This document shows positions 1-58,723 of a stretch of 64,000 bases of DNA, piece after piece; the first letter of the stretch is position 1, and each line of letters opens with the position of its first letter. The stretch covers positions 265,768 through 329,767 of the forward strand of contig OZ244229.1 of NCBI GenBank assembly GCA_965217045.1. The letters are read 5' to 3'. The stretch comes from Vicinamibacterales bacterium. Its GTDB lineage: Bacteria > Acidobacteriota > Vicinamibacteria > Vicinamibacterales > UBA8438. The notes beneath the pieces were generated by a model that saw nothing but the letters and a program-made list of their open reading frames with translations, was not told the origin of the DNA and ran no database searches. The position numbers and the translations under genes were made by a program.

Positions 1-229
1 CGCGCGTCGTCGGCATGTCGTAGACCGCCTTGGCCACGAAGGCTCGCGCCAGTGCCGCGCGGTCCTTGCGCGGACGCCCCGGCACCCGGAAGCACCGGGG
101 AATCCACTGCTCGATACGGATGACCTCGAGAGTCTGCACCAACTGCTGCTGTTTCCCGGTCAGCGGACCCAACACGGGCTCCAACTGGGGGAACAGCGCA
201 CGCTGGATCGACTGCCAATAGGGGGCGAA

Positions 230-1097
230 GTAGAGTCGAGGAGAGGCGCGTAGCCGGTAGGGGGTCGGTGGCTTATCCGGCGCTTTCGCAATCGGGCCGC
301 AGGCCGAGTCCCGTGGGTACGTTTCCTCCCCCCGCTCTCCGAACCCGGCGGGCCGATTTCCGGCACCGGGCTCTCCAGTGGAATCATGCGGCTCGCGCAC
401 GGGCTTCCCGGTCACGACCAGCGGACGGGTCTCGCGAGCCCTGGCACCAGGCTCGCACCCTTGAGCCGGCCGGCCGGTGCGTCGTCAGGCCTGTTGACGC
501 CCTGGCGACGGCGACCGCTCGGGTCGTCCCCTTCGCTTGTGCATGTGATGACATCCGGCATTCCTGCTCATCTCCGGGGTGATAGGCCGTTCGGCCACTC
601 CCGTGAGCCTGCTCCCTTTCGCCATCGCTTCCACCTGAGGTCCCTTCCCTCCGCCGGCATTACCCGGCTTCCTCGGTACCTACGGACCTCTCCGCCACCC
701 TGACCGGCCCGACCTGACCCTCGCGGGCTGTCCGTTGGCGCGTGCCACGCCACCGGCAGGGCTTCCCGTGTTGCGACCAATCCCCTCTTCCACACGTGCC
801 GCCGCCATTACCCCGGCGGAACCGGTCGGTGCTCGCGTCGCTCGCTTCCCGACCGCTGGCAGCCTTCCCCGTTATTCCGGCGGGTCGGCTTCCGCGTTAC
901 CCGTTTCGAGGCCTGCTCGGCGTTCAACGTCGTTGCGGCCCGCGTGGTCGCTGAACCGCCCAAGGCGGCCCTTTGTCGTCGGAGTGCTTCAGCCGATGTC
1001 GTTGCCTCCGTCGTCCGCTCCGACTGCTACCGGCTGGAGCGACAGTTGCCGGGCGGGATTCGCACCCGCTGAGGAATGGCACCTTGTCACGGCGCAC
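230..1097 (-). ncRNA. ORF-less group II intron (868 nt)
   Basis: This insert is absent from the paralogous site 55068/55069. On the minus strand it starts GUGCGCC and ends CUCUAC, and lies exactly between codons 7 and 8. A domain V motif is at 373-341. No RT/maturase ORF is present in six frames. Confidence 0.75.
341..373 (-). ncRNA. group II intron domain V
   Basis: The minus-strand sequence is GAGCCCGGUGCCGGAAAUCGGCCCGCCGGGUUC. The lower helix GAGCCCGG/CCGGGUUC carries the AGC triad, there is a 2-nt 3' bulge, and the upper helix GCCG/CGGC is capped by a GAAA-containing loop. Confidence 0.75.
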
Positions 1098-1190
1098 GGA
1101 ACCACGCAGGCTGTTCATGGTGTGTTTGATTGACCGCTCCTGCCAACTACTGTATATTGGCGGACAATGAAGATGTGAAGCAGCGAATCG

Positions 1191-1652
1191 ATGGCCTACA
1201 GCGCAGCGTTACGCCGCTATGAGGAGCAATACGACGCGCTCAAGGCGGAACTGCAAACCCTCGGGTTCATGGGCCAGGGTAGCGTTCACACCCGCCGGAT
1301 AACGTGTGGGAGGGCTACCTGTCGCTGCCACGACGACCCGGACGCCCGTCACGGCCCCTACCACTACTGGACGCGCAAGGCCCGCGGAAAGACCGTCGGC
1401 TTGAAGCTCACCGAAGACGAACTCGTCCTCTACCGGGAGTGGATCGAGAACAACCGTAAACTGGAACGGCTCGTGAAGGAAATGCGCCACCTCTCTTCGT
1501 GTGCGCTTGCCCTCATAACCGTAAACTGGCACGGCGTGAAGGAAATGCGCCACCTCTCTTCGTGTGCGCTTGCCCTCTCCATGAACCCCCGTGTCGCCGG
1601 CTTCCCGGGCGCGGTCACTGCCATCCTGCGAACGCTGCATCCCGCCCGCTGA
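1191..1652 (+). CDS. small Cys-rich IS accessory protein (DUF6788-like; motif CGRATCRCH...HGPYHYWTRK), C-terminus altered by a tandem duplication
   Basis: ORF track. It is a paralog of 55161-55508, lies divergent from the transposase, and is inside the IS boundaries in both copies. Confidence 0.6.
   Translation: MAYSAALRRYEEQYDALKAELQTLGFMGQGSVHTRRITCGRATCRCHDDPDARHGPYHYWTRKARGKTVGLKLTEDELVLYREWIENNRKLERLVKEMRHLSSCALALITVNWHGVKEMRHLSSCALALSMNPRVAGFPGAVTAILRTLHPAR
1454..1577 (+). repeat. tandem duplication, about 65-bp period (units 1454-1518 and 1519-1577)
   Basis: CCGTAAACTGG[A/C]ACGG..GTGAAGGAAATGCGCCACCTCTCTTCGTGTGCGCTTGCCCTC occurs twice, so the peptide VKEMRHLSSCALAL is repeated. Copy 2 (55425-55500) has a single unit. 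Confidence 0.85.
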
Positions 1653-1802
1653 CCGTCCCTCGCCCCGCCGCCTCCGGCAAGGAAAAAACTCGGCCGATCA
1701 CGCGTTTCGCAAGAGGCTCATTGGGTAAGCTGGCTCATGGCACGGAAGCGGCGCCGCCCGCGGCCGGCGCCTGCGCCGGGTCCGGCGTCGCCTCCTCCGC
1801 CG

Positions 1803-3947
1803 CTACCGGATCGCGTTGTCCGGCAGCCGCAGCGCCACGAGCGCTCCGGGTTGCCCGCGCCGCGCGCTGCCCGTCTGCATGAGGATGTACTGCACGCCGT
1901 CAGCAAGGTAGGTCATCATGCCGTACTGCCCTGGAATCGGCACCTCGACGCTGGCCAGGATCTCGCCCGACCGCTTGTCGCGGGCCCGCAGCAGCGGCAG
2001 GCCGTTGGCGCCGAGTTCCGCCTCGCCCCGCAGGTCCTCGGTGGTCTGCACCAGCAGGTCGCCCACGACCATCTGGATGGAGCGTCCCGTCCCGCCCAGG
2101 TTCGGCAGGTCGACGCCGGCCAGGCGGGGGTGGTTCCGGAACCGCTCGGGGGTCTCCCCGATCGGGATATCCCACAACCGCTCCCCGGTGTTCATGTCGT
2201 AGGCGGCCAGTCCCTGGAAGAGCGGACGGTACACCGGCAGCCCGTCGATCTGGGCCGGAAACTCGGCCGGCCCGCCCGGGGCCCAGGCAGCAACCGTCGT
2301 GCCGGTCGTGGGCGTGTGCCGCTCCCGGCCCCGCCAGGCCTCGGCCGACAGACCGGGCAACCCGCGCTCATCGTCGACGCCGTTGGTGGGCACCATGAAG
2401 CGCGGCGCGCTGCACACCCGGTTGTGGGGCGCGTACATGATCCCGGTCGTGGGGTCGGCCACGGCGGGGTGATAGATGTTGAGCCCGCCCATGCAGCCGA
2501 TCACGTTCCGGTAGTCGTTGTCGTGCGGATACGGCAGCGGGGGCACGTACAGGCCCCCGAGCCGGAACTCGCTGAGGATCTCGAGCGCCTCGCGCTTCAG
2601 CTCCGGCGTGAAGTCCAGCACGTAGTCCTCGGTCAGCCCATCGACCACGATCGGGTCGAGCGGCTCGGGCCGGGTCGGATACGGCTGGGTGGGGGCAGTG
2701 TAGTTGCCCGGCACCTGGGTCTGCATCACCGCGCGTTCCTCGATCGGCCAGAGCGGCTCGCCGGTGGCCCGGTTGAACGCGAAGATCAACCCCTGCTTGG
2801 TGTTCTGGACGAGCGCCGGCACCGGCGTGCTGTCGACCGTGAGGTCCATCAGGATCGGTGCAACCGGCAGGTCGTAGTTCCACTGCTCGCTGCGGTGGAT
2901 CTGGAAGTGCCACCGCCGCTCCCCGGTCGCCACGTCGAGCGCCAGCACGCTGCCGCCGAACAGGTTGTGGCCCGGCCGGTGGCCCGTGTAGGACTGGACG
3001 GTCGAGGCATTGGTCACCAGGTAGACGAGCCCGAGCTCCGGGTCGGCCGAGGCCGGCGCCCAGGTGGACATGTCGCCCGACCAGCGCCAGGCGTCGTTCT
3101 CCCAGGTCTCGTGGCCGTACTCGCCGGGGCGGGGGATCACGTGGAACTTCCAGAGCACCGCGCCGGTGCGGGCATCGATACCCATGATGTCCCCCGGCAC
3201 GTTCTCGATGCGGGTCTGGTCGTAGCTCGGCTCGTGACCCACGAGCACCACCACCACCCCGTTGACCACAATCGGGGGCGACGAGGCGGTGACCATCCCC
3301 AGTCGGCGGGGAACGCCGTGATCCGGGTCATAGGGACCGTCCCAGGCCAGCCACGGACCCCAGTCGGCCACCAGGGGCGGAATGAGGTCGACGACACCGC
3401 TGCGCGAGAAGGTGTCGATCTCGACCGGCTCGCCCCAGCCTTCGAGCGGTCGGCCGGTGCGGGCGTCCAACGCCCAGAGAAAGAAGGCGGGCGAGGTGAC
3501 GAAGACGACGCCCCGGCCGTCGACCTCCGCATAGGCGACTCCCTTGCCGAAGTCGGTGCGCGGCGAACGGAGGTAGCGCATCGTCTCAGGCTCGCGGAAG
3601 GCCCAGAGCGTCTCGCCGGTGGCGGCGTCGATCGCCACCACCTGCCGGCGCTGGCCGGCGACGGTGTAGAGCACGCCGTCGGCGAACACCGGCGTGGCCC
3701 GCGTCGTGTACTCGACGCCGGGCCCGAAGTTGTTGCCGCGCCAGATCCAGGCAACCTCGAGGTCGGCAAAGTTGTCGGCGTCGATCTGGGTGAGCCAGGG
3801 GTTGGAGCGGGTGTGGCCGGCGTCGCCGCCCAGGTAGCGCCACTCGCCGTCCTCGACCCCCGGAAGCTGGGCGGCAGCCGGGGAAGCCGCCCCGAGCAGG
3901 CAGGCCAGCGCGGCCAGGACGCCGCCGGTTCTACGGTATCGCGTCAT
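1803..3947 (-). CDS. PQQ-dependent dehydrogenase (quinoprotein, 8-bladed propeller), secreted
   Basis: ORF 1803-4127 trimmed to MTRYRRTGGVLAALACLLGAASPAAAQ, a signal peptide. Repeated quinoprotein propeller segments are present, for example VYTVAGQRRQVVAIDAATGETLW. Confidence 0.85.
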   Translation of the reverse strand: MTRYRRTGGVLAALACLLGAASPAAAQLPGVEDGEWRYLGGDAGHTRSNPWLTQIDADNFADLEVAWIWRGNNFGPGVEYTTRATPVFADGVLYTVAGQRRQVVAIDAATGETLWAFREPETMRYLRSPRTDFGKGVAYAEVDGRGVVFVTSPAFFLWALDARTGRPLEGWGEPVEIDTFSRSGVVDLIPPLVADWGPWLAWDGPYDPDHGVPRRLGMVTASSPPIVVNGVVVVLVGHEPSYDQTRIENVPGDIMGIDARTGAVLWKFHVIPRPGEYGHETWENDAWRWSGDMSTWAPASADPELGLVYLVTNASTVQSYTGHRPGHNLFGGSVLALDVATGERRWHFQIHRSEQWNYDLPVAPILMDLTVDSTPVPALVQNTKQGLIFAFNRATGEPLWPIEERAVMQTQVPGNYTAPTQPYPTRPEPLDPIVVDGLTEDYVLDFTPELKREALEILSEFRLGGLYVPPLPYPHDNDYRNVIGCMGGLNIYHPAVADPTTGIMYAPHNRVCSAPRFMVPTNGVDDERGLPGLSAEAWRGRERHTPTTGTTVAAWAPGGPAEFPAQIDGLPVYRPLFQGLAAYDMNTGERLWDIPIGETPERFRNHPRLAGVDLPNLGGTGRSIQMVVGDLLVQTTEDLRGEAELGANGLPLLRARDKRSGEILASVEVPIPGQYGMMTYLADGVQYILMQTGSARRGQPGALVALRLPDNAIR

Positions 3948-11980: not shown

Positions 11981-14844
11981 CTACGCTCGAACCGTCGAGA
12001 TCACGGAACTCGTGCCCGATACCTGGCCCGAAGCATGGCTGCCGCTGATGGCGCCGCGGTTGCGCCCGACCAGGCCGCCGACGTTTTCCGTGCCCGTTAC
12101 GACGCCAGTGACGTGGCTGTCGGTGATAGAGCCCGAGCTCGGGAGCGTACCGACCAGACCACCGACGTTGACATTGCCGGTCACGTTGACGTCGACCAAG
12201 CTGATTCCGGTCAACCCGCCGGAACGCCCAGCGACAGGCGTCCCGACAGACCCGAACAAGGCGACACTACCAACCTGCGTCGGCCGGTTGATGAACAGAT
12301 TGGCGATTGCGTGGCCGTTGCCCTTGATGCTGAACCTTGCCGGGAAGGGGAACCACCCGGCGCCGTCGTCCCAGTAGTCGTCGCCCGCGTCGGCACCCCC
12401 GCTCCCGTTCGTGTCGAAGTCCAGGTCCGCCTCCAGTTCGTAGCCGACGCATCCGTCCGGACATCCCATGCCCAGCGCGCCCTCGGCGAACGCCGACGTT
12501 GCGTAGTAGGACGTCCAGTTCGCGACTCTATCCACCGCACCGTCGGCATCCTGGTCGTAGCGCATGGCATCGAGTTGCGCCAGGTTGGAGATCTCGATAT
12601 AGCCGTCGTCGTCGGTGTCGTAGTCCCGCGTCCCCGGCGTGACCGTGACCGTGACCGTCCGCACCGCGCTCAGCCCATCGGGATCGGTCGCCCGCACCCA
12701 CACCGCGATGCGCCCGGGGGCGAGCGGCGTCAGGGTCAGGGCAGACCCGCTCATGCTGGCCGTGACGTAATCGGGATCGGTCGACAACGCCGTGTAGGTC
12801 AAGGAGTCGGTGTCCGGGTCGGCGAACCCGCTCTCCACGCTCAGCGTCACCGCGTCGGCGCCCGGGGCCAGCGTCGGCACGCTCAGGGTGCCCTCCACGG
12901 TCGGCGCCTCGTTGCGGTCCGCCGCGGCCACGTCCACCGCATCGACCGCACCCGGCGCCATCACGATCCCGGCGCCCGAGTCTCTGTCCACGCCTGTCGC
13001 CTCGATGTCCAGCGCGGACCCGGTCAGCGCCGTGCGAAGGCCCGCCAGCGTGACCTTCGCCGGACCGCCAGCGGCCTCCAGCAACAACGCGCCGATCCCT
13101 GCGGCGTGCGGCGCCGCCGACGAGGTGCCGCAGAACGTCGCGAATTCAGGTGCCGACGTCGAAACGCACGTCGCCGCCACGATGTCCGGCTTCTGTAGCA
13201 GTTCCCCGCCGGTCGACGAGAAGTTCCCGGCTGTAATCGGCGCGCCGTCCGCCTCGAAGAACATCCGGCGCGGCCCGTCCGAGCTGTCCGTCCGGATCGA
13301 CTCCGTGCCATCGAAGACACCGCCGGCTCCGGCAGCGGTGCGAACGTCGACGGCACCGACGGTCACCGCTTTCTCGGCGGCCGAGTGTCTGGCCGGCGGT
13401 CGCGACCGCCAACTGCCCCCTGAACGTGTCGAGACGCAGATAGCGGTTCGCCGCACCGGAGGCCTTGACGACAACCAGACGGGCATCGGCGTGGTCCGAG
13501 GAGGAATTGATGGACTCGATCGGGTCCTGCGAGCCGTCCTGCGAGTTGGTCGAGCTCGCGAGCACGTTACCGTCGGCGTCGACCAGGAAGAGGTCGTAGT
13601 CGTTCGCGGACGCCCCCAGTGGATCCGCCCACTGGAGGACGAGAGAGGCCGACCTTCGTGATCCGGTTCTCTTCCACACCGCCGCCGAAGTCGTGGGCCT
13701 TGCCGACCGAGACACCGTCGACCTCGAAGTCCGTTCCCTCGGCGTAGTCCCCTTCCCAGACCCCCGACGTGCCGTCGTTGAGATTGCCAGCGTTGCCGGC
13801 GGAGGAAAAGAGAAAGCAGCCGTCGGCAGCCGCGTCGTTCACCGCCCGCGCCACGACGCCGTCCCGAAAGACTGGTTCGAGAAAACAGAAGATGTCGTCG
13901 ACGATGACGTCCGCGCCGGCAGCGCACAGGTCCTCGATGTTCTGCGCCAGCCGCGCCTCCCCGCCACGGCCTGTGGCGAAGTACAGCTCGGCGCCCGGCG
14001 CGAGATCGTGGGCGATCTCGAGCATGGCCGTTCCCTCGTCGCCGCCCTGGCCCGTTACGAGACCAGCGATCGACAACGGCCCGCCCTCCTGTCCGGGCAG
14101 CACCGTCACCTGCGAGGGCAGATCCCCCGACGCCTGACGCTCGGCGAGGGTCCTGACACCGTCCGAGATCACGCCAATCCCTATACCGGTGCCGTCGACG
14201 CCGTATATGGTGCGTGCCAGGTTCGACCGGTGGGCCATGTCGCCCGCCGAGGCGTTGTCCTTGCGAGTTATCGCTTGATCCGGCATGCCCCTCGCAGCGA
14301 GCGGGGCCGCCGACACCTGAGCTGCCGTGCTCGCCTTGTCCGCCGGCCGGATCGCACGAACCGCGTCCAACGCGGCCAGGCGCTCGATGGAAGCAATGGG
14401 AAGCAAGGCCCGGACGGACCGATACCTGGGTACGCTGTTGACGACCGAGCCGCCCAGCTCACGGATGCGCGCCAGCACCGCTGGTGTGACGTCGGCCCGG
14501 ATGTCCACCAGCACCCGGCCGCCCCCGGCTGGCCCGTCGGGAACCTGCTCGACAGGCTCTACTTCCTCCCGCGGCGGCCGGCGCGACCGCCGCGGCGCCT
14601 CGGCTGCCGCCAGCTTCAGCAGCCCCGAGCCGACCTTGCGCTGCGCGGGTGTCCGCTGCGCCTTTGCGGGCAGGAGTGCGGCGATCTCAGCGCGCGCTCG
14701 CCGTGCAGCCGCCGTCGGTGGTGTTGCTTCCCCCCGCACGCCTGCGGGTACCGGGCGGCCCGGCTTGGCTGTGCCGGACTGGGACCCGAGGCTCGTTGGA
14801 GTGACACCAGGCTGCGTTCCGCCGCCCACCTCTGGTAGCGGCAA
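11981..14844 (-). pseudogene. S8 (subtilisin-like) serine peptidase with C-terminal GLUG-type (GGLVG) repeats; two frameshifts
   Basis: Three consecutive frames carry one protein. 14844 to about 13645 holds GIGIGVISDG and the propeptide-like region. About 13645 to 13380 holds LQWADPLGASANDYDLFLVD. About 13380 to 11981 holds GTSSAAPHAAG (catalytic Ser) followed by GGLVG repeats. Confidence 0.75.
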
Positions 14845-15448
14845 GATGAAAAGGACTCCTCACCATTTTGCAAGTGTCTTTTTGCGTCGTCGTGACGGCG
14901 GTCGAGATGGGCGTGAGGTGACGGGATGGCGCATGGACGCTGCCGTCGCCGTGGACGCAAAGAACGCGCCCACCGCGCCTTGGACACGCCGCAGACGACG
15001 TGCCCACAGCGCCCACGAGCCGTTTCGTCATCGGACTCGCCAAGGCGTGGCGAATGTCGATCGAGAGCGTGTGTTACGAGTTCACGCGGTGACATTTCCT
15101 GCACGGTGCGGGTCGAAGCAGGTGCCGTCGCGGAGCATGGCGCAGGCGACGTTGAGCAGGCGGTCGGCCACTGAGCGCAGGGAGCGGGCGTGTCCATGGC
15201 CGCGGCTGCGCAGCGCCTGATACTTGGCGCGGCTGACCGGGTCGCGGTGGGCAGCGACGCGAGCCCAGTGGTAGGCGGCGTCGCGCAGCCGGTCGTGGGC
15301 AGCCAGGCGGCGCACCACGAGCAGGCTCTTGCCCGAACGCCGGGTGACCGGCGCCACCCCGCAGAGACAGCGAAGCGCGGCGTAGTCCCGCCGCCGCAGC
15401 GCGTCGCTGAGGTTGCCCCGATCTCGTGGACAGGTTAAGGCTTTCGGT

Positions 15449-16414
15449 TCACGTCATGGTGTGTACATCAACATTGATTCCTGTGGTCGGTGTGGATCCC
15501 GTGCGCAGCGCGGGATCCAACGGACTTGTGGGCGCCCGTAGGGCGTCCACAGGCCGGGCACCGTCCACAGCGCCGGCCTGATGGAGCCGTTCGAACTCCA
15601 GTGGCGCCCGGTAGCCGAGCGCGGAGTGACGCCGCCGTGTGTTGTACCACCCCTCGATGAACTCGAACAACGCCGCCCGTGCTTCGGCGTGCGTTGACAG
15701 CGTCGTTCGGTCGAGCAGCTCGCACTCCAGGGTCGCGAAGAAGCTCTCGGCCATCGCATTGTCGAAGCAATCGCCGACCGAACCCATCGATAGCGCGACG
15801 CCCCGTTCCCGGCAGCGAGCGCCGAAGGCCAGCGAGGTGTACTGGCAGCCTTGGTCGGAGTGATGGATGACCGCCTCGGGCCGCCGTTGCGCCACGGCCA
15901 TCTCCAGCGCCTCGACCACCAGCGCGGTGCGAAGATGCCCCGCCATGGCCCAACCGACGACGCGCCGGCTGAACACGTCGAGGACGATGGCCAGGTACAG
16001 GAAGCCGGCCAGGGTCGGGACGTAGGTGATGTCGGCGACCCAGAGCCGGTTCGGCGCGTCCGCCTCGAAGCGCCGCTCGACCCGATCCGGGGCCGGGCGG
16101 GCCTGGGCATTCCGGCGTGTCGTGCGAGGGCCGCGGCGCCGGCTCACCCCGGCGACGCCGACGGACCGCATGACCCGGGCGACCCGCTTGCGGCTCACCG
16201 CGACACCGCCCTCGGTCAGTTCGGCGTGAATCCGAGGAGCACCATACGTCCCTCGACTCCGGCCGTGAATCGCCTGGACGCGAGCCCGGAGCTCGGCATC
16301 GGCCCGTGCCCGAGCCGACGGAGGACGACGACGCCACGCGTAGTACCCGCTCGGGGAGACACCGAGCACCCGGGCCATCGTGGCGACACGGAAACGAGCC
16401 TGATTCGCGCTCAT
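15449..16414 (-). CDS. IS3 transposase OrfB (rve integrase core)
   Basis: ORF track. Motifs WVADITYV, HSDQGCQYTS and NAMAESFFATLECEL. Confidence 0.9.
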   Translation of the reverse strand: MSANQARFRVATMARVLGVSPSGYYAWRRRPPSARARADAELRARVQAIHGRSRGTYGAPRIHAELTEGGVAVSRKRVARVMRSVGVAGVSRRRGPRTTRRNAQARPAPDRVERRFEADAPNRLWVADITYVPTLAGFLYLAIVLDVFSRRVVGWAMAGHLRTALVVEALEMAVAQRRPEAVIHHSDQGCQYTSLAFGARCRERGVALSMGSVGDCFDNAMAESFFATLECELLDRTTLSTHAEARAALFEFIEGWYNTRRRHSALGYRAPLEFERLHQAGAVDGARPVDALRAPTSPLDPALRTGSTPTTGINVDVHTMT

Positions 16415-16719
16415 GACCCGGTAGGTCTCCCGGGTCGGGTCTCCCGCGCGAACCAGGCCGTTGCCTTTGCCAATATCTCTCGCTCTTCGCGCAGGCGCCG
16501 GTTCTCCCGGCGCAGCCGGCGAAGCTCTTCACGCTCCTCCGTGCGCAGCCCGTCGCTGCGCTCGCCCGCATCGCGGCCCACCTGCGCGACCCAGGTTCGG
16601 ATCGCCTGGGACGACGGCTCGAACTCGCGAGCCAGGTCCTCCGGCGCACGTCCGGACCGAACCAGGTCGACCATCTGTTGCCGGAACTCCGCCGCGTACG
16701 GTGGTCTCGTCTTCGGCAT
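16411..16719 (-). CDS. IS3 transposase OrfA (HTH)
   Basis: MPKTRPPYAAEFRQQMVDLVRSGRAPEDLAREF... with a leucine-zipper-like tail. It overlaps orfB by ATGA. Confidence 0.85.
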   Translation of the reverse strand: MPKTRPPYAAEFRQQMVDLVRSGRAPEDLAREFEPSSQAIRTWVAQVGRDAGERSDGLRTEEREELRRLRRENRRLREEREILAKATAWFARETRPGRPTGS

Positions 16720-17980
16720 CGCGGATACTCCTTCTCCCCCCAAGAGGATAGGTGTCCACGAAACCGGGGCAACTTCATCGCTACCCTCGGCAAGCAGACA
16801 AGCGAGGACGCCGGTGCCGATGCCGGGCAGCGATAGCAGGATGGCCGCGTCGGGCGGCGGTGGCGACGGCTCTGGCTCGCTCTCGGCGGGCGCGTCCGGG
16901 TCTTCCGCCGGTGCGGCCTCGGCGAGCTGGTGCACCAATCGGTCGAGCTGGCTGCGCGTGCGCCAGTTGCCGGTTGACCAGTACGAGGCGTTCGGCGACG
17001 AGCCGCACATGCGCGGCGGCGGCCTCGGCGGCACCTGGCGCGACCCGGACGGCCGGCGCCCGCAGCCGGTCACACAGCGTCGCGGCGTCGACCCGGCGGA
17101 TGCGGTGCTGTTTCAACAACTTGGCGAGCGTCGCTTCGCGAACGCGCTGCGCCGCAACCGGCGTCGGCAGGCGCCGCCACAGGGCGAGCGCCCAGGACGC
17201 CGCGACATCGTCGCTGGTCGCGGCGAGCAGCTGCGGGTAGTAGCGCCAGAGCTGCTCGCGCATCCGGTTCGCCTGGCGAACGCGTTCCCGCGTAATCTCC
17301 TCGCTCAGGCGCGACCACTCCCGCAACTCGACGATCGCTGGGTCGGTCGGCTCCAGCCGCCGCAGACAGTGCGGGTCGGTGCGTAGCGCCGAGGCCAGCA
17401 CCCGCGCATCCCGTCGGTCATCCTTCGCCCCCGCCGGCGAGATGCGGTCGCGGAAGCGGTCGAGCTGCTTCGGATTGATCGCGTGGACAGCGAAGCCCCG
17501 TTCCATCAGGCTCTCGACCACCGGCCCGCGCGGTGTCTCGATCGCCACGCCGACCTGCTCCGCCTTACCCGCCGTAAAAGACAGAAGCCAGTCCGCCATC
17601 TCCGACAGCCCCTGGCCGCCATGCTCGAACGCCCGCTCGCCGAGCAGCTTCCCGGCAACGTCGCTTACGCACGCTTGGTGCGTCTGCGATCCCCAGTCGA
17701 CACCCACGAACCAGGCCAGCTCCACATCGAACCTCCTATCTGCCGCATTTCACGGGCGCGCCAACGATGCCTGCCGGTCCCTGTACTGGCGCTCGATGGC
17801 GCAAACTCCCCACGGGGCATCCATCGCTGGCTGAACGCCGGGGCACAAGTCCTTTTCAAGTGCTCGAGACACAGGGACCCCTCGGTGGCTCCCGGCGGCC
17901 TGCCCGACTCCGCGAGATTTGAGATTTACCCGCGCGAAGTCATTGAGAAAGGTACAGGGACCCCGTGGCCACTTGAAATG

Positions 17981-19726: not shown

Positions 19727-20422
19727 GGACCCCCTGAGCACTCGGAAACAGCGCTCGCCTGGCGATAATCGAGGTGGCGAGACACGGTCGTCTCGTCGAC
19801 CGAGCCAGGAGGACGCGGAGGTGATCAGGATGTCCCAGTGGGTCGAGGTCCGCCACCTGCATCTGGTGGAGGGTGTGCCGAAGAAGGAGATCGCCCGTCG
19901 GTTGAAGTTGGATGTCAAGACGGTGCGGCGGGCCATCGGCCGGCCGACGCCGCCGGTGCGGGTGTCGCCGCCGCGGCCCAGCACCCTGGCCCCGTGGCGG
20001 GAGCAGATCAAGCAGTGGCTGTGCGCGGAGCCGCGGTTGACTGTCAGCAGTCACTTCGAACTGATCAATTCTGGACGCGTGTCGGTGCACCGGGCCGGTT
20101 GCCTGGTTCGTCGACGTCTTGATGAAGAAGAAGATGATGGCTGTGGTCGCTGTGCGAAACTGCGTCTGCGCGGTTTTGCAAACTCCTGTGGGCGCGGTTG
20201 TTTGCGTCCACAGGAGTGGCGGCGTCCACAGCCTCCGGAGCTGGCGGGCAGCGACTCGTTCGGGTAGCGTAGGCAGCGGGCTGAAACGTGGGGTGAGGGC
20301 CCGGTATGGCCAGCGGACCCTCGTGACCGCCCCGAGCTCCGACAGAGCGAGCCGGTCGGTGCTGTTGTGCCACGGTTCGAACGCGTTGTCCAGTCGGAGA
20401 TCGCCCCGCGCGCTCCGACGCC

Positions 20423-25350: not shown

Positions 25351-25376
25351 CCACCACAACCCAAGAATGGGGGTCC

Positions 25377-52584: not shown

Positions 52585-53846
52585 CGGATTCTCCCTTAAT
52601 CCGTGTCCAAGAAAACTGGGGGCGCCTCACGCCGTCATCGTAACGCACTCGGGATTCGGCGGGCATGAGTACGATGCGGCCAAAGCATTTTTTCTCCACC
52701 ACGGTCTGGAGCTTCCATCGACACCACTTCTTGCGCCGGAGTTCCGGAACCCACTGTTTCTCAAGACCTTGTGCCGGGGTCTCGAGACGAAAGGGGAGCG
52801 TCGCCTCCCTCGGGGCATTCACGGTATCACCGCGGTGTTCGACTTGTATTTCGTTGCAGTCAACGACCGGCTGGCCTCGACCCTTGATTTCGACTCCCGG
52901 ACTCCACTCGTGCGACAGGCGGTTGAGGCCGTTGCGGAGGCGAGTCTCGATTCAGGCAGGCCATGGCTTACCCTGGCGGAGACTGGAGAAGTCGTCAACG
53001 GGTTCTTGGGCGGGCGCGGCTTTGAGCGATCTCTTTATCGGGGGCTGGTCGCGGAGGGTGTCCTCGTTGAGGAGGTGGCGTCATTGCCCGCCGAGAATAC
53101 GGAAATTGTGGTCATCATTGGGTACGAGCGCTGTGCTGATCACCTCGTGGCGAAGATCCTATTGGACAGATATCTCGACCTCAATGATCCTGGCGTTGCA
53201 TTTGCGGAGACTGGAGGTTTGGAGTTTGTCGGCGATGACAAGCGCTACGTTTCGCCTGGTCTCCTGGAGGCCCTGTGCATTCAGGTGCCCGAGCAGACCG
53301 GACAAGAACTCATTTCGGTCGCGCCAACGTGTGCCGATCGATTGGGGTTCGGTGATGCGTTCCGGCAGAGTCTTGTCTGGCGGGCGTACGCGGCTTTTTC
53401 GGAGGGAACCCACGGAGCCATAAACAGGCTGTGCCGAAGCAACGAAGACCTGAACGATACGATCGATGTGCTGCTCACCGTCGCCACGTTGCCCGAACAC
53501 CCGCTCAATGCGCGCTATCTCAATGGGCGGCTGCGAGAGGACGCGCTGCCGGAACGGGATGCGTGGTGGAGCGTGTACCTCCACCACGCCTATGGTGAGG
53601 GCGGCGCCGTCGACAGACTAGTTGAGCCGCTTGCAAAACTCCCGGGGGATTGGGGTGGGCGCAGTCCTCAGCTCTCTTGGTGAACACGATTGCCCTGGAT
53701 CGCCGACTGGATATCTTGTCGGGAGAACCGGCGGCACGCCGGAGGTAGAAGTCGGATGTTTCGACGTGTTCTCGACCGCGCGTTGGGACACCCGTGGGTG
53801 ACTGACGCCCGTCGGGCGCCGAGGGGCGTTGCCGGCGGTGCACTGG

Positions 53847-55133
53847 TTATGTCACGAGGCGCACGAGTTGGTCGGCGGTGAGTGCGAGCACGCCGAACAT
53901 GCAGTGGCACATCACTTTCGAGGCGCCACGGACCCGGACATGGCGACCGCCGAACTCGTCCTTGAGTCGGCCATTGACGCGCTCACCCGCCGTACGCTCG
54001 TTGTAGCGAGCCTGCTCGGGAAGCTGAAAGCCGATACGCTGCAGGCGCCGGGCTTCGGTTCGCAATTCCTCCGCCAGCGCCTTGTCGCGGCGGGGGTTGG
54101 TGTCAATCAACGGGACGTGGCCGAGTGAGCGGCTGTGCTGGCGGATCGGTTCCGCGTCGTAGGCGGCGTCCATCAGGTCATACAGATTGGTCGTTCGCTC
54201 GGCCGACAAGGTCGCCAGCGGAATGGCGGCTTGGCTGTCGTGCAGGGAGGCGGACGTCAGCAGGCAACTGATCGGAATCTGGCCGTCGGCCACGTCGAGG
54301 TGCAGCTTGTAGCCGACCCAGGTCGACTTGTAGCCCTTGCTGTCCTTTTTCATGCCCACGTCACAGTCGGTCGGCAGGTCGTCGAGCATCGCCGGCAAGG
54401 TCATGGCCGCCTGCCGGTCGAGGCGCTTGAGGACCTTCGGCCGTTCCTCACCCTTCTTCGGCCGTCCCCGCTTGCGCTTGGGCAGCGGGGGCGTCTTTTC
54501 CTTCGCGGCCGGCTTCTCGCGGGCCTCGATGGCCGTCGAGTCGCGGCAGAGGTGACCCACCAACCGGTCGTGGTGGGTGTTGCGGATCAACGCTGCATGC
54601 GTGCGCTGGGGCAACTGTGTGTCGGAGAACTCGACGAAGGCGCGTGAGAAGACCGACTCGCTCGGCACCTCGCTCTTCCGCTCCCAGCCGCAGATCCGGG
54701 CCGCAGTGCCACCGGTCGTCGGTGACCAACGCTGCGCGTCCAGCAGCACGCGCGCGTCGGCAGACCGACTCGCTCGGACCTCGCTCTTCCGCTCCCAGCC
54801 GCAGATCCGCCGCAGCGCCACGTCGGCGTCCAGCAGCACGCGCGTCGTCGGCATGTCGTAGACCGCCTTGGCCACGAAGGCTCGCGCCAGTGCCGCGCGG
54901 TCCTTGCGCGGACGCCCCGGCACCCGGAAGCACCGGGGAATCCACTGCTCGATACGGATGACCTCGAGAGTCTGCACCAACTGCTGCTGTTTCCCGGTCA
55001 GCGGACCCAACACGGGCTCCAACTGGGGGAACAGCGCACGCTGGATCGACTGCCAATAGGGGGCGAAGGAACCACGCAGGCAGTTCATGGTTTGTTTGAT
55101 TGACCACTCCTGCCTACTACTGTATATTAGCAA
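53847..55133 (-). CDS. DDE transposase (DUF772-type N-terminal domain plus DDE_Tnp_1-type core); the likely true start is MNCLRGS at 55088
   Basis: ORF track. GRPRKDRAALARAFVAKAVY and YKLHLDV...LMDAAYDA...NERTAGERVNGRLKDEFG. It contains an internal tandem duplication. Confidence 0.85.
   Translation of the reverse strand: MLIYSSRQEWSIKQTMNCLRGSFAPYWQSIQRALFPQLEPVLGPLTGKQQQLVQTLEVIRIEQWIPRCFRVPGRPRKDRAALARAFVAKAVYDMPTTRVLLDADVALRRICGWERKSEVRASRSADARVLLDAQRWSPTTGGTAARICGWERKSEVPSESVFSRAFVEFSDTQLPQRTHAALIRNTHHDRLVGHLCRDSTAIEAREKPAAKEKTPPLPKRKRGRPKKGEERPKVLKRLDRQAAMTLPAMLDDLPTDCDVGMKKDSKGYKSTWVGYKLHLDVADGQIPISCLLTSASLHDSQAAIPLATLSAERTTNLYDLMDAAYDAEPIRQHSRSLGHVPLIDTNPRRDKALAEELRTEARRLQRIGFQLPEQARYNERTAGERVNGRLKDEFGGRHVRVRGASKVMCHCMFGVLALTADQLVRLVT
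54651..54853 (-). repeat. in-frame tandem duplication of about 112 bp inside the transposase gene
   Basis: GACCGACTCGCTCGG(C)ACCTCGCTCTTCCGCTCCCAGCCGCAGATCC...GTCCAGCAGCACGCGCG occurs at 54651 and again at 54763. The peptide ICGWERKSEV and the RVLLDA motif are repeated. Confidence 0.8.
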
Positions 55134-55160
55134 ACATCAAGGATGTGAAACAACGAATCG

Positions 55161-55508
55161 ATGGCCTACAGCGCAGCGTTACGCCGCTATGAGGAGCAAT
55201 ACGACGCGCTCAAGGCGGAACTGCAAACGCTCGGGTTCGTAGGCCAGGGCGGCGTTCACACCCGCCGGATAACGTGTGGGAGGGCTACCTGTCGCTGCCA
55301 CGACGACCCGGACGCCCGTCACGGCCCCTACCACTACTGGACGCGCAAGGCCCGCGGAAAGACCGTCGGCTTGAACCTCACCGAAGACGAACTCGTCCTC
55401 TACCGGGAGTGGATCGAGAACAACCGTAAACTGGAACGGCTCGTGAAGGAAATGCGCCACCTCTCTTCGCGTGCGCTTGCCCTCATAACCGGCAGGCAGG
55501 CTCCATGA
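55161..55508 (+). CDS. small Cys-rich IS accessory protein (DUF6788-like)
   Basis: ORF track. 115 aa, paralog of 1191-1652, and inside the IS boundaries. Confidence 0.6.
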   Translation: MAYSAALRRYEEQYDALKAELQTLGFVGQGGVHTRRITCGRATCRCHDDPDARHGPYHYWTRKARGKTVGLNLTEDELVLYREWIENNRKLERLVKEMRHLSSRALALITGRQAP

Positions 55509-55731
55509 ACCCCCGTGTCGCCGGCTTCCCGGGCGCGGTCACTGCCATCCTGCGAATGCTGCATCCCGCCCGCTGACCGTCCCTCGCCCCGCCGCCTCCG
55601 GCAGGGAAAACTCGGCCGATCACGCGTTTCGCAAGAGGCTCTAGTTGATTGGGCATCCTCGCTGGATTCGGGCAGACCCATCAATGACGACGCGGTGGAT
55701 CTGTGCGCAGTGGCGCTCGCGTGGATGCTTA

Positions 55732-57425
55732 GCCCGGATTATGCGTGAAGGTGCGGTTGAGGGGGAGACACAGGAGCCTCCGTGTGGTACAAACGTAATG
55801 TACACAACGTTTTAGCCACAACGGAGATCCCTGCGTGACGCCTCACACGATGCCACAGACTGTTCTGTTCCCGGATCTGTTCGACAAGCCCCTCGTCGCC
55901 ACGTTCAACCAGGAACACGCGAGTTCCGACGGCGGCGCCGTCCTGCTCAAGGCGGCCGAGCGCGTGTACGGCTTGGTCAAGGCGTTCGCCCAGTGTCTGG
56001 CCGACAAGCGCGCCGCGGAGAAGATTCGGCACACGTTCGCGGATCTGATCGGCCAGCGGATCTTCGGCATCGCGTGCGGTCATCCCGATGGCAACGATGC
56101 CGACCACTTGGCCGACGACCCCATCCACAAGCTGCTGCTCGGGCGGGACCCGGTGTCCGGCGCGCCCTTGGCGTCGCAACCTACGATCTCGCGGTTCGAG
56201 AACGGCGCGACCCGCACCGCGCTCTACCGGATGGGGCGCGAGTTGGCGGCGTGCGTCATCGAGCGGCATCGGCGCCGCCTGCACGGGCGGGCGCGGCTCG
56301 TCACCATCGATCTGGATCCGACCGACGACCTGACGCACGGCGCCCAGCAGCTCACGTTCTTCAACGGGCACTATGGCGGCTGGTGTTATCTGCCGCTGCT
56401 CGGGTTTCTGAGCTTCGACCGCGAGGCGGAGCAGTATCTGTGCGCGGCGGTGCTGCGGCCCGGCAACGCAGTGGCCGCCGACGGGACCCTCGGGCTGCTG
56501 TGTCGGCTGCTCCCGCTGCTGCGGGCGGCGTTTCCGCGGGCGCGGTTTCTCGTTCGGCTCGACGGGGGCTTTGCGACCCCGGAGGTCTTCGAGTTCCTGG
56601 ATGCGGAGCCCCGGCTCGACTACGTGGTGGCGATGGCGAAAAATGCGGTTTTGGAGCGGCATGCCGAATCCGCGCTGCAGACGGCGCGCACGCAGAGCGA
56701 GGTCAGTGGCGAGACCGCACACGTCTATACCGACGCCCGCTACGCCGCCCGCACCTGGGGCCATGAGCGCCGGGTGGTGATCAAAGCCGAAGTGGTCCGC
56801 CTCGGCGAACGTGCGCCGCGGGACAACCCGCGCTTCGTGGTGACGAACCTGCGCCAGACGCCGCGTTTCATCTACGAGAAGGTCTACTGTGCGCGGGGGG
56901 ACATCGAGAACCGGATCAAGGAGTTGCTCGACGGCCTGCAGATCGACCGCACGAGCTGCTGCCGGTTCTGGGCCAACCAACTGCGCGTCTTGCTGACGGC
57001 CGCAGCCTACGTGCTGATGCAGGAGCTGCGGCTGCGGGCGGCGGGCACCGCGTGCGCCCGCACCCAGGTGACGTGGCTACGCGACCGATTGCTCAAGCTC
57101 GGGGTCCAGGTCGTCCGCTCGGTCCGCCGGCTCGTTCTGCATCTGCCGCGGGCCACGCCGCAGCGCGAGGCATGGCAGCGCATCGCCCTCGCACTCGGCG
57201 CACGTGCCGGATAGCCCATCCGTCCCGCCGCACCAAGCTCCCTCGGGGACGATACGGACCGTCTCCAGGAGAAGCTGTCGACACTCGGGCTCACCGCGCC
57301 CGGCCATCGCCCCATGGCTCGCCCCGCAACCCCCTCGCAGCCCCCAAATGACGATGGCGAAACCCTGTTCGTCGTCCCGCCACGCCCTGTCGATCCCGAA
57401 TATCGAGCTTCAGGAATAATGCGGG
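55732..57425 (+). mobile_element. IS1380-family insertion sequence
   Basis: Inverted repeats GCCCGGATTATGCGTGAAGG (55732) and CCCGCATTATTCCTGAAGC (reverse complement of 57425), about 15/19. It is flanked by TTA at 55729-55731 and 57426-57428. The boundaries are good to about 2 nt. Confidence 0.75.
55835..57214 (+). CDS. IS1380-family DDE transposase
   Basis: ORF track. FNQEHASSDGGAVLL, DLDPTDD, YCARGDIENRIKEL. Confidence 0.85.
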   Translation: MTPHTMPQTVLFPDLFDKPLVATFNQEHASSDGGAVLLKAAERVYGLVKAFAQCLADKRAAEKIRHTFADLIGQRIFGIACGHPDGNDADHLADDPIHKLLLGRDPVSGAPLASQPTISRFENGATRTALYRMGRELAACVIERHRRRLHGRARLVTIDLDPTDDLTHGAQQLTFFNGHYGGWCYLPLLGFLSFDREAEQYLCAAVLRPGNAVAADGTLGLLCRLLPLLRAAFPRARFLVRLDGGFATPEVFEFLDAEPRLDYVVAMAKNAVLERHAESALQTARTQSEVSGETAHVYTDARYAARTWGHERRVVIKAEVVRLGERAPRDNPRFVVTNLRQTPRFIYEKVYCARGDIENRIKELLDGLQIDRTSCCRFWANQLRVLLTAAAYVLMQELRLRAAGTACARTQVTWLRDRLLKLGVQVVRSVRRLVLHLPRATPQREAWQRIALALGARAG

Positions 57426-57428
57426 TTA

Positions 57429-58723
57429 GGACAGTGATCGATATAAAGTTATCAACTTCATCGGGGTAACAGTTTGTAATTCCATTCCCCATGGAACGTA
57501 TCGCGGACCAGCGCGATTGCGTCCATCTGTTCCTTGGTCACCGTAACGCCCGTGGGATACTGCCCGGCGTCGAGTTCGGCCAGGACCCGGAGCCCGGTCG
57601 CCGTCCGGGTGTTCCCGATGCGGTCGACGATAGTCTCATAGGTCGTCAGCGGGGTGCCGCGCCAGTTCGCCGTGATGTGACAGAAGAGCCGGTGTTCGAT
57701 CTTGTTCCACTTGCTGGTGCCGGGTGGACAATGACTCACCTGGATGGTCAGTCCGGTCTCGTCGGCCAACTGTTGAAGCTCATGCTTCCAGGCGCGAGAC
57801 CGATACCCGTTGCTCCCGCCCGCATCGGCCGTGACGAACAGGGCGGTGGCGTCGGGGTAGGCGCCGCAGCCCATCTGGCGCCACCAGTGGCGAATCGACG
57901 CCACCGCGAACGTCGGTGTGTCGTGGTCCCATCCCACGCTCACCCAGGCTTCGTTGCGCGCCATGTCGTAGACGCCGTACGGAATCGCCTTGCCCTCGGC
58001 GTCGGTTGGGAAATCATGGACCAACACCGCCGGCGGCGTGCCCTTCGGCTGCCATTCCCGCCCGCCGTTCTTGAAGTTTCCGACCAGCTCTTTCTTCTTC
58101 GTGTCGACCGAGATCACCGGCCGCCCCTCGGCCAGAAACGCGTCCGCGGTCGCGTTGATGTGCTCGAACTGCGCGTTACGGTCCGGGTGGCTCGCTCCCT
58201 CCTGGCGCTTGCGGGGCGATTGCAGCCGGTAGCCCAGTTGATGCAGCATCCGGCCGACGGTGGTCGAACTCACTCGCCACCCCTGTTGTGTCAGCGCCGC
58301 GGCCAGCTTCGCCCGACTCTTGCCTGTCCAGCGTAGCGGCGAGGTCGGGTCTCCGCGCGTCAGCGGGTCCACCAGCGCTTCGAGTGCGGCCAGCAGACCG
58401 GGCTGGCTCTGTTCGAGACGGGGCCGCCCGGCGCCCGGACGTCGTACCCGGTCTGTCGGCGTTTGGCCTTGCGAGATCTCCCGGCGACCCTTCCGGATCG
58501 TCTCCCGGGCCAGACCCGTGGCCGACGAGACCAGCGCGTCCCCGCCATAGCCGATGAACAAAGACTCGGTGGCCGCCCACCGGCGGCGACTGCGCTCATC
58601 CAACACGGGCGAGACCACCGCGTACTTCGCGACGATGGTGGCTTCCAATTCCACGTTGCGCTGCATGCAACCGAAATAGACTACGAAACCCAGAAGATAG
58701 CAAGTTAATTGCCGCCAGTGGCC
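57429..58723 (-). mobile_element. ISAzo13-family insertion sequence
   Basis: Ends GGACAGTGATCGATATAAAG (57429) and GGCCACTGGCGGCAATTAAC (reverse complement of 58723). It is flanked by TTA at 57426-57428 and 58724-58726. The same arms are found in the MITE at 22301-22401. Confidence 0.7.
57458..58666 (-). CDS. ISAzo13-family (Rhodopirellula-type DDE) transposase
   Basis: ORF track. SRRRWAATESL, ISVDTKKKELVGNFKNGGREW, HCPPGTSKWNKIEHRLF. Confidence 0.85.
   Translation of the reverse strand: MQRNVELEATIVAKYAVVSPVLDERSRRRWAATESLFIGYGGDALVSSATGLARETIRKGRREISQGQTPTDRVRRPGAGRPRLEQSQPGLLAALEALVDPLTRGDPTSPLRWTGKSRAKLAAALTQQGWRVSSTTVGRMLHQLGYRLQSPRKRQEGASHPDRNAQFEHINATADAFLAEGRPVISVDTKKKELVGNFKNGGREWQPKGTPPAVLVHDFPTDAEGKAIPYGVYDMARNEAWVSVGWDHDTPTFAVASIRHWWRQMGCGAYPDATALFVTADAGGSNGYRSRAWKHELQQLADETGLTIQVSHCPPGTSKWNKIEHRLFCHITANWRGTPLTTYETIVDRIGNTRTATGLRVLAELDAGQYPTGVTVTKEQMDAIALVRDTFHGEWNYKLLPR

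What the first reader, a model, noticed from the sequence alone, without database searches (positions are those of the whole stretch)
230..1097. ORF-less group II intron in a transposase gene, with the empty site present in the same window
IS copy 1 carries an 868-nt insert that copy 2 lacks. In copy 2 the flanks GCGAAG|GAACC are contiguous at 55068/55069. On the minus strand the insert begins GUGCGCC and ends CUCUAC. It sits exactly between codons 7 and 8, so precise removal restores MNSLRGS|FAPYWQS. It contains a near-canonical domain V (373-341) with the AGC triad, a 2-nt bulge and a GAAA-containing loop. No reverse transcriptase/maturase ORF exists in any frame, so splicing and mobility would depend on a protein supplied in trans. 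Bacterial ORF-less group II introns are uncommon. A filled/empty pair in one locus is direct evidence of gain or loss.
Basis: partly seen in the sequence, partly recalled or inferred. Interest (0 to 1): 0.7.

Follow-up and report, generated by a model that had tools for sequence, protein, structure and literature searches.

The report
Protein-less group II intron in transposase
An 868-base self-splicing-type (group II) intron with no protein gene of its own interrupts a transposase gene; it belongs to a mobile family in soil Acidobacteria that appears to borrow the enzyme, and repeatedly the front half, of related full-length introns.

Summary
Window 230-1097 (minus strand) is an 868-nt insert, absent from the paralogous IS copy (55068/55069). 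It lies between codons 7 and 8 of a DDE transposase. It matches two Rfam group II models above their gathering scores. It starts GUGCG and ends AC. Its domain V is at 373-341, and domain VI has a bulged branch A at window 236. It has no RT/maturase ORF.

New findings:
- The same 868 nt occurs at 87-99.9% identity in at least 10 Vicinamibacterales/Terriglobia genomes, each time in a different flank, with no target duplication or terminal repeats.
- Across 79 copies, EBS1, EBS2 and EBS3 covary with each copy's own exons. This is the reverse-splicing signature of IIB-like introns.
- The same genomes carry ~1.99-kb relatives that encode a 446-aa endonuclease-less RT/maturase, the likely helper in trans.
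- The ORF-less form is not a simple deletion. DI-DIII are 90-99% identical to these relatives, DIV is unrelated with no ORF trace, and DV-DVI are only ~70-73% identical, with compensatory changes. Mosaic patterns show repeated recombination.
- Its cognate home site is an IS terminal repeat. That site is present but empty in this window at 57413/57412.

Verdict: a real intron and a new member of a known, rare kind. The lineage history is unusual.

The parts
230..1097 (-). ORF-less group II intron, 868 nt (intron nt p = window 1098-p)
   Evidence: Insert relative to copy 2. Rfam RF02003 and RF00029 match above gathering score. Copies 87-99.9% identical occur in other genomes.
1098..1118 (-). Exon 1: transposase codons 1-7 (MNSLRGS). 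IBS1 is GUUCC at 1102-1098 and IBS2 is GCCU at 1111-1108.
   Evidence: ORF list. Pairing register taken from the covariation analysis.
1..229 (-). Exon 2: transposase from codon 8 (FAPYWQS...), cut off by the window edge. IBS3 is U at 229.
   Evidence: 100% identical to 54839-55068. The +1 nucleotide covaries with intron nt 290.
766..1097 (-). Domain I (intron nt 1-332). EBS2 is GGGU at 902-899, EBS1 is GGAAUA(A) at 878-873(872), and EBS3 is A at 808.
   Evidence: RNAalifold on 79 copies gives many compensatory pairs. Mutual information and pairing with the exons.
638..765 (-). Domains II (nt 333-403) and III (nt 409-460). This is the end of the region shared with the RT-encoding relatives.
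   Evidence: Consensus fold. Homology to the relatives stops at nt 461-463.
376..636 (-). Domain IV (nt ~462-722). It is specific to the ORF-less family, has no ORF and no detectable RT remnant, and is predicted to be multi-branched.
   Evidence: No similarity to the relatives or to the IEP. The fold shows only one-sided changes. No Rfam hit.
341..373 (-). Domain V (nt 725-757): AGC triad, 2-nt bulge, GAAAU loop.
   Evidence: RF00029 alignment. Compensatory pairs at 730:752, 732:750 and 736:744.
233..337 (-). Domain VI (nt 761-865): a 3-bp basal helix, a bulged branch-point A (nt 862, window 236, 7 nt from the 3' splice site), then a 10-bp helix.
   Evidence: Consensus fold of 33 distinct tails. 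Compensatory pairs at 767:858, 770:855 and 771:854.
1119..1719 (+). Remainder of host IS copy 1, including the divergent DUF6788 gene (1191-1652). That gene carries a 63-65-nt tandem duplication at 1452-1577.
   Evidence: Homology to the IS consensus. Pfam DUF6788 (scored on the copy-2 gene 55161-55505). The duplication is absent in L107 and L108.
53621..55641 (-). Host IS copy 2 (intron-free). Transposase at 53850-55088, empty site at 55068/55069, DUF6788 gene at 55161-55508. It has a 102-nt in-frame tandem duplication.
57395..57430 (-). Unoccupied cognate home site CCUAACCCGCAUUAUUCC|UGAAGCUCG (junction 57413/57412), inside the right terminal inverted repeat of a DDE_Tnp_1_4 IS (about 55729-57428).
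   Evidence: Identical to the site occupied by the 99.9%-identical copy in L014.

Best explanation
Window 230-1097 (minus strand) is an intact, non-autonomous (ORF-less) group II intron with IIB-like exon recognition. It sits in sense orientation 21 nt into the transposase gene of a 1.9-kb IS.

Inferred history: the intron RNA reverse-spliced into this site by pairing EBS1 (GGAAU) with GUUCC, EBS2 (GGGU) with GCCU, and EBS3 (A290) with U+1. It was then copied into DNA by an endonuclease-less RT/maturase supplied in trans by a related ~1.99-kb intron in the same cell. The site resembles, but does not fully match, the intron's cognate site in the terminal repeat of another IS, so this is an ectopic or relaxed-specificity insertion.

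Inferred present behaviour: if the helper maturase is expressed, or if the ribozyme self-splices, the intron is removed by branching at A862 and the transposase frame is restored. Without splicing, translation ends after a 64-aa peptide and this IS copy is silent.

Shown:
- the boundaries and ribozyme anatomy;
- exon/EBS covariation;
- near-identical copies in unrelated sites;
- RT-encoding relatives in the same genomes as other copies;
- a mosaic origin, with DI-DIII exchanged with resident RT-encoding introns and DIV-DVI forming a separate conserved module.

Inferred: splicing activity, the identity of the helper protein, and whether the source genome still has one.
For: - Rfam matches above gathering score.
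- Precise insertion with no duplication, judged against two empty sites: 55068/55069, and window 57413/57412 compared with L014.
- Eleven full-length 868-nt copies, the window's included, in different flanks. The window copy differs by 1 nt in 813 aligned from L014's copy, which sits in a completely different site.
- L001 and L003 are identical to each other over DI-DIII (nt 1-460) and align identically to the window copy over their full length (97.9%), but sit in dissimilar flanks.
- Covariation over 79 distinct copies: intron nt 220-225 pair with exon -1..-6 (MI 0.86-1.52, 78-99% paired, 4-6 pair types); nt 197-198 pair with -11/-12; nt 290 pairs with +1 (MI 1.13, 93% paired).
- The DI-DIII consensus fold has many compensatory pairs. 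DV and DVI helices are kept by double changes, and the bulged A lies at -7.
- Relatives encoding RVT_1 + GIIM proteins occur in the same genomes as ORF-less copies: OZ242205.1, CBDCEY01, OZ253581.1, OY761475.2 and OY760734.1.
- One such relative lies inside the same IS family in a related assembly (L105).
- Literature: bacterial ORF-less introns nearly always co-reside with related IEP-encoding introns (PMC4424553). Trans-mobilisation and trans-splicing have been shown in cyanobacteria (PMC2882425, PMC12584367).
Against: - No RT gene lies in the 64-kb window, and I could not examine the rest of the source genome.
- A perfect cognate site in the same window, on the same strand, is unoccupied. 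This argues against frequent current mobility.
- In the sister assembly L107 the same intron is truncated inside DV.
- EBS1-IBS1 here is only 5 bp including one G.U, and EBS2-IBS2 is 4 bp with two G.U.
- DIV, where maturases usually bind with high affinity, shows no similarity to the relatives' DIV, so recognition by their IEP is not guaranteed.
- Some ORF-less copies that share a site type with resident IEP+ introns (L006, L007) could have arisen by recombination in place rather than by retrohoming.
Confidence: 0.85

Rival explanations
1. Stranded intron. It is structurally intact but immobile and unspliced in this genome because no compatible maturase is present. It would then act only as a permanent insertional knock-out of this IS copy and be on its way to decay.
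For: No RT in the window. An empty perfect home site lies 56 kb away on the same strand. The syntenic copy in L107 is already truncated at nt 756. [quoted passage not shown]
Against: The copy differs by 1 nt from L014's copy and is 100% identical to L108's, so the insertion is very recent. All catalytic and exon-binding elements are intact. Related assemblies with the same IS carry an RT-encoding family member (L105).
Confidence: 0.25
2. Protein-independent self-splicing intron, like C.te.I1 of Clostridium tetani. It would need no maturase in vivo and would persist as a splicing-only element.
For: The ribozyme is complete, with canonical DV and DVI and a compact structured DIV. A precedent is cited in PMC4424553.
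Against: Multiple near-identical copies in unrelated sites require reverse transcription, and so an RT. Every genome found with full ORF-less copies and examined also holds RT-encoding relatives.
Confidence: 0.1
3. A non-intron mobile DNA (a MITE-like transposon) or an assembly chimera that merely contains intron-like motifs.
For: It lies among many IS elements, and it is repeated in many genomes.
Against: There are no terminal inverted repeats and no target-site duplications at any of 11 copies, and the filled-versus-empty comparisons are exact. The exon flanks covary with internal loops. Independent assemblies L107 and L108 reproduce the junctions.
Confidence: 0.01

Closest known systems
ORF-less TeI3 introns of Thermosynechococcus elongatus, mobilised and spliced by the IEPs of related TeI4 introns (PMC2882425)
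   Same: A non-autonomous bacterial group II intron family that co-resides with RT-encoding relatives. Both have multiple copies, diversified EBS sequences matching different target sites, and a presumed trans-acting IEP.
   Different: TeI3 arose from a single internal ORF deletion with clear N- and C-terminal ORF remnants, and all copies are in one genome. Here no ORF remnant is detectable, DV-DVI are ~27-30% diverged from the relatives while DI-DIII are 1-10% diverged, and the family is spread over many species. The IEP here also lacks an endonuclease domain.
Trichodesmium erythraeum dnaN ORF-less introns, spliced by the maturase of the RIR intron (as summarised in PMC12584367)
   Same: ORF-less introns inside a protein-coding gene, dependent on a related intron's RT/maturase acting in trans.
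   Different: Those interrupt a housekeeping gene and act as splicing-only elements. This one is in a transposase gene and shows signs of recent mobility.
RmInt1-type bacterial introns with endonuclease-less IEPs that home into insertion sequences (PMC4615759, PMC5894124)
   Same: IIB-like ribozyme, an IEP of RT + maturase only, preferential insertion into IS elements, and a conserved T about 15-16 nt upstream of the site. The last comparison rests on my own recollection of RmInt1 target requirements.
   Different: RmInt1 is autonomous. Class membership of the present family was not determined.
C.te.I1 of Clostridium tetani, an independent ORF-less intron (PMC4424553)
   Same: A bacterial ORF-less group II intron with an intact ribozyme.
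   Different: C.te.I1 is a single copy in a genome without any related IEP. The present family is multicopy and accompanied by IEP-encoding relatives.

Membership tests
Group II intron (ribozyme) | Conserved 5' GUGYG and 3' AY boundaries | tested here: met
   The intron starts GUGCG and ends ...CUAC. The same ends are seen in all copies.
Group II intron (ribozyme) | Domain V: a ~34-nt hairpin with the AGC catalytic triad and a 2-nt bulge | tested here: met
   RF00029 scores 43.7 bits against a gathering score of 40. The helix is maintained by compensatory changes across 33 distinct sequences.
Group II intron (ribozyme) | Domain VI with a bulged branch-point adenosine 7-8 nt from the 3' splice site | tested here: met
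   A862 is bulged between a 3-bp and a 10-bp helix, 7 nt from the end. Pairs 767:858, 770:855 and 771:854 show double changes.
Group II intron (ribozyme) | Domain I scaffold matching a curated D1-D4 covariance model | tested here: met
   RF02003 scores 80 bits against a gathering score of 49, E 7e-16. The consensus fold has many compensatory pairs.
Group II intron (ribozyme) | Exon recognition by EBS1-IBS1 and EBS2-IBS2 base pairing | tested here: met
   Covariation between intron nt 220-225 / 197-198 and each copy's own 5' exon, over 79 copies.
Group II intron (ribozyme) | Catalytic self-splicing or protein-assisted splicing via a lariat | not testable with these tools
   Needs RT-PCR, RNA-seq or in vitro splicing.
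Subgroup IIB-like | The first 3'-exon nucleotide is recognised by EBS3, a DI position remote from EBS1, rather than by delta adjacent to EBS1 | tested here: met
   Intron nt 290 pairs with +1 (MI 1.13, 93% paired, at least 4 pair types). No signal at positions flanking EBS1.
Subgroup IIC | No EBS2, and insertion after terminator or attC stem-loops | tested here: not met
   EBS2-IBS2 covariation is present, and the targets are IS sequences without a preceding terminator motif.
Mobile (autonomous) group II intron retroelement | An RT/maturase ORF in domain IV | tested here: not met
   No ORF over 132 aa, and no blastx similarity to the family IEP. Hence it is ORF-less and non-autonomous.
Non-autonomous ORF-less bacterial group II intron served in trans | A related IEP-encoding intron present in the same genome | tested here: inconclusive
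   Met for five other genomes that hold ORF-less copies and for a related assembly with the same IS (L105). Not testable for the source genome, since only 64 kb is available and it holds no RT.
DNA transposon / MITE | Terminal inverted repeats and target-site duplication | tested here: not met
   Neither is seen at any of 11 copies or in two filled-versus-empty comparisons.

The most novel reading that the evidence does not exclude
The 3' part of this element (a ~260-nt ORF-free DIV plus its own DV-DVI) may be a long-lived, horizontally spread non-autonomous module. It would survive by repeatedly recombining with whatever autonomous intron is resident, taking over that intron's DI-DIII. This brings the exon-binding loops that set target specificity and, presumably, the surfaces the resident maturase recognises. 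That would make it a SINE-like parasite of group II introns with modular exchange, rather than a short-lived deletion derivative. It would show that bacterial ORF-less introns can persist and diversify across species.
Probability: 0.45. Interest if true: 0.65.

Novelty: new member of a known kind. Interest (0 to 1): 0.5.

Why it matters
[quoted passage not shown] They serve as models for how introns could lose their own protein and come to depend on a shared, trans-acting splicing machinery, a step proposed on the way to spliceosomal introns.

This case has three useful properties:
- a clean natural set of filled and empty sites;
- a family of near-identical copies in different targets, with readable EBS/IBS retargeting;
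- direct sequence evidence that a non-autonomous intron and its autonomous partners exchange their 5' halves.

It also affects annotation. The host transposase is not called as a gene in the related assemblies, because the intron splits it 21 nt after the start codon.

Tried and rejected
- MFE folding of the whole intron was uninformative (z = 0.8 at ~69% G+C). I used comparative folding instead.
- My first EBS2 candidate, GCAGGC at nt 182-187, is complementary to exon GCCUGC. I rejected it because it is invariant across copies with different exons. The covarying positions are nt 196-199.
- Looking for RT remnants in DIV with blastx and blastn found nothing. There is only a weak, unscored resemblance around an AUG at nt ~472.
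- Looking for the donor of the DV-DVI module did not resolve it. The exact DV 33-mer occurs in species-representative genomes only in ORF-less-type copies and fragments. In metagenomes it occurs in introns whose IEPs are 30-39% identical to this family's, with similarity limited to about nt 720-777.
- The look-up of encoding contigs with the 153-aa DUF6788 variant found nothing. The PQQ-dehydrogenase neighbour did locate L107 and L108.
- The exon1/intron junction 29-mer is absent from all species-representative genomes.
- I tried to find the helper IEP in the source genome through the protein search. There were too many variants and none could be tied to the source contigs, so I abandoned it.
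- Simon et al. 2008 (PMC2525955) is not held.
- The difference in flank identity between the two IS copies is only partly explained. Measured in the 100%-identical L108 locus, copy 1 is 98.8% identical to the IS consensus on the 3'-exon side and ~95.5% on the 5'-exon side.

Full report
**1. The observation**

Reading the window and comparing it with itself confirms that 230-1097 is an 868-nt insert in one copy of a repeated element. Positions 1-230 are 100% identical to 54839-55068. Positions 1098-1719 match 55068-55641 at ~89%. In copy 2 the flanks are contiguous at 55068/55069.

On the minus strand the insert begins GUGCGCC and ends CUCGACUCUAC. The host ORF starts at 1118, and 21 nt (MNSLRGS) precede the insert. 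Removing the insert joins this to FAPYWQS..., the N-terminus of the intact copy.

The host protein has DDE_Tnp_1 (PF01609) above Pfam's cut-off and a DUF772 (PF05598) match just below it (19.7 vs 23.1 bits); both families are on record for the 379-aa transposase of other IS copies.

No ORF longer than 132 aa lies in the insert.

**2. Identity as a group II intron**

- Rfam gives two matches above gathering score on the minus strand: RF02003 (D1-D4 type 4; 80 bits, E 7e-16) at 928-1071, and RF00029 (domains V-VI; 43.7 bits) at 259-375.
- Domain V is intron nt 725-757, i.e. window 373-341.
- RNAalifold on 79 distinct copies of the first 460 nt gives a DI/DII/DIII architecture with numerous compensatory pairs.
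- A fold of 33 distinct 3' tails shows DV and a long DVI. A862 (window 236) is bulged 7 nt from the 3' splice site. Full double changes occur at DV pairs 730:752, 732:750 and 736:744, and at DVI pairs 767:858, 770:855 and 771:854.
- MFE folding alone was uninformative.

**3. It is one copy of a family**

An exact search with the DV 33-mer in species-representative genomes returned 18 loci. These are mostly Vicinamibacterales, plus Terriglobia MAGs, one Syntrophales MAG and one contig labelled Ca. Aldehydirespirator.

BLAST shows the whole 868 nt at 88-99.9% identity in these loci (87-99% by global alignment of its segments), with several copies per genome. Each copy has different flanks. None has terminal inverted repeats or target duplications.

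The best match, L014, differs by 1 nt in 813 aligned. It sits in a completely different site.

**4. Exon recognition**

Using ORF-less and RT-encoding copies together (79 distinct), I scored mutual information between exon positions and intron columns.

| Interaction | Intron nt | Exon position | MI | Paired |
|---|---|---|---|---|
| EBS1-IBS1 | 220-225 | -1..-6 | 0.86-1.52 | 78-99% (4-6 pair types) |
| EBS2-IBS2 | 197-198 | -11/-12 | 0.62-0.85 | 57-81% |
| EBS3-IBS3 | 290 | +1 | 1.13 | 93% |

The EBS1 pairs are the six top-scoring pairs in the whole analysis. The EBS2 register shifts by one position in some subfamilies. An EBS3 remote from EBS1, together with an EBS2, is the IIB pattern and excludes IIC.

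In the window copy:
- EBS1 GGAAU (878-874) pairs with GUUCC.
- EBS2 GGGU (902-899) pairs with GCCU.
- A290 (808) pairs with U+1 (229).

Examples from other copies: UGAAUAA:UUAUUCA (L009, L002, L016), UGAUCAAC:GUUGAUCA (L006), UGCAAC:GUUGUA (L011).

**5. Relatives with an RT**

In L008 the ORF-less copy is followed, 1 nt later, by a second intron. That intron's DIV encodes a protein with RVT_1 and GIIM domains and no endonuclease domain.

Searching with this protein gave 80 loci. The full-length introns are ~1.99 kb and encode a 446-aa IEP. Its nearest solved structure is GsI-IIC RT.

Several genomes hold both forms: OZ242205.1, CBDCEY01, OZ253581.1, OY761475.2 and OY760734.1. A related assembly has such an intron inside the same IS family as the host here (L105).

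This fits the published rule that bacterial ORF-less introns co-reside with related IEP-encoding introns (PMC4424553).

**6. Not a simple deletion derivative**

- Nt 1-461 (DI-DIII) are 84-94% identical (window copy) to the RT-encoding relatives.
- Nt 462-722 have no similarity to the relatives or to the IEP.
- Nt 723-868 are only ~70-73% identical to them.

As a control, pairs of RT-encoding introns with 90-95% identity in the 5' part have on average 94.5% identity in the 3' part (minimum 88%). Pairs above 95% in the 5' part have 99.8% in the 3' part.

Among ORF-less copies the three segments diverge in step (87-99%).

Informative-site maps show:
- L006 is of the resident RT-encoding type at 57 of 57 sites up to nt 430, and of the ORF-less type after that.
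- L007 is similar.
- L001 and L003 carry a patch at about nt 155-225, including EBS2 and EBS1, of the resident type.

So the ORF-less DIV-DVI module has recombined at least three times with resident autonomous introns. Each time it acquired their targeting loops. The tandem arrangement seen in OY761475.2 offers a simple substrate for such exchange (inference).

**7. Host and target**

The host is a 1,917-bp IS. It carries a 379-aa transposase and a divergent DUF6788 gene, and it is present in many 99.7-100% identical copies in related assemblies, all intron-free at this position.

The filled locus recurs in L108 (100% identical) and, truncated inside DV, in L107. The junction is absent from all species representatives.

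The chromosomal neighbour, a PQQ dehydrogenase, is 90-94% identical to Vicinamibacterales proteins. The window is therefore most likely from an unrepresented Vicinamibacterales species.

The window-type intron's cognate site is CCUAACCCGCAUUAUUCC|UGAAGCUCG, in the terminal inverted repeat of a DDE_Tnp_1_4 IS. That site is occupied in L014. It is present but empty in this window at 57413/57412, on the same strand. The transposase site shares IBS2 and 5 of 7 IBS1 positions with the cognate site, so it looks like an ectopic insertion.

**8. Mechanism and limits**

The most likely account is retro-insertion and splicing assisted in trans by the family's RT/maturase.

What is shown is anatomy, covariation, copy distribution and co-residence. 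Splicing, the helper's identity and its presence in the source genome are inferred.

The empty cognate site, the absence of an RT in the window and the truncated sister copy leave real room (about 0.25) for a stranded, currently inactive intron.

**9. Novelty**

As an object it is a new member of a known, rare kind. The closest precedents are TeI3/TeI4 of T. elongatus (PMC2882425) and the Trichodesmium dnaN introns (PMC12584367).

Three aspects were not described in the papers I could read:
- the mosaic history;
- the absence of any ORF trace;
- persistence across many species.

I give these as the novel case, not as the main claim.

Noticed in passing
window 57395-57430 (minus strand; junction 57413/57412): An unoccupied, perfect cognate home site for this intron lies in the right terminal inverted repeat of a DDE_Tnp_1_4 IS (about 55729-57428). 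It is identical to the site occupied by the 99.9%-identical copy in L014.
   Followed up: yes
L014 1414-3023; L012 about 2260-3622: An IS110-family IS (DEDD_Tnp_IS110 + Transposase_20) is inserted at the same intron position (nt ~57/58, in domain I) in two different genomes. The two IS copies are 88% identical. This suggests the IS110 element targets this intron sequence.
   Followed up: partly
L008 5287-6611; L015 6487-7591; L019 1649-2973; L021 239-1343: Tandem introns: an ORF-less copy sits exactly 1 nt upstream of an RT-encoding relative (sites GTTGATC| and GTTGATCA|). The arrangement is repeated at several loci of OY761475.2 and is a possible substrate for the 5'-half exchanges.
   Followed up: partly
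L008 759-3879: Three consecutive tyrosine-recombinase genes (a recombinase trio) lie between the IEP ORF and DV of an RT-encoding intron, so they interrupt that intron.
   Followed up: no
window 54640-54853: The transposase of IS copy 2 carries a ~102-nt in-frame tandem duplication (413 aa against the family's 379 aa; the motif ICGWERKSEV appears twice).
   Followed up: partly
window 1452-1577: A 63-65-nt tandem duplication inside the DUF6788 gene of IS copy 1 lengthens the product to 153 aa. It is absent from the otherwise 99.7-100% identical loci L107 and L108.
   Followed up: partly
window 1-230 vs 54839-55068, and 1098-1719 vs 55068-55641: The two IS copies are 100% identical on the 3'-exon side of the intron site but only ~89% identical on the 5'-exon side. 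The first mismatch is 14 nt from the junction. Copy 1 looks like a hybrid of IS subtypes. No cause was established.
   Followed up: partly
L107 13560 (ERZ26694896 ctg118113, 7.15 Mb circular): In a closely related complete genome the same intron at the same locus is cut off at intron nt 756, inside domain V. It is followed by unrelated sequence and, about 1 kb on, a large serine recombinase gene.
   Followed up: no
L014 (CBDHCM010000005.1): This contig is labelled Ca. Aldehydirespirator (Actinomycetota), yet its IS and intron are ~99% identical to this Vicinamibacterales-like window. Either this is recent horizontal transfer or the contig was mis-binned.
   Followed up: no
L004 1-900; L109-L117: The exact DV 33-mer also occurs in a different ORF-less intron in a Syntrophales MAG, and in metagenomic introns whose IEPs are only 30-39% identical to this family's.
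   Followed up: partly
window 14840-19734 and 25368-27146: Further large repeats (96-99% identical, direct and inverted) show that the window is dense in other IS copies, including DDE_Tnp_ISAZ013 at 57461-58666.
   Followed up: no
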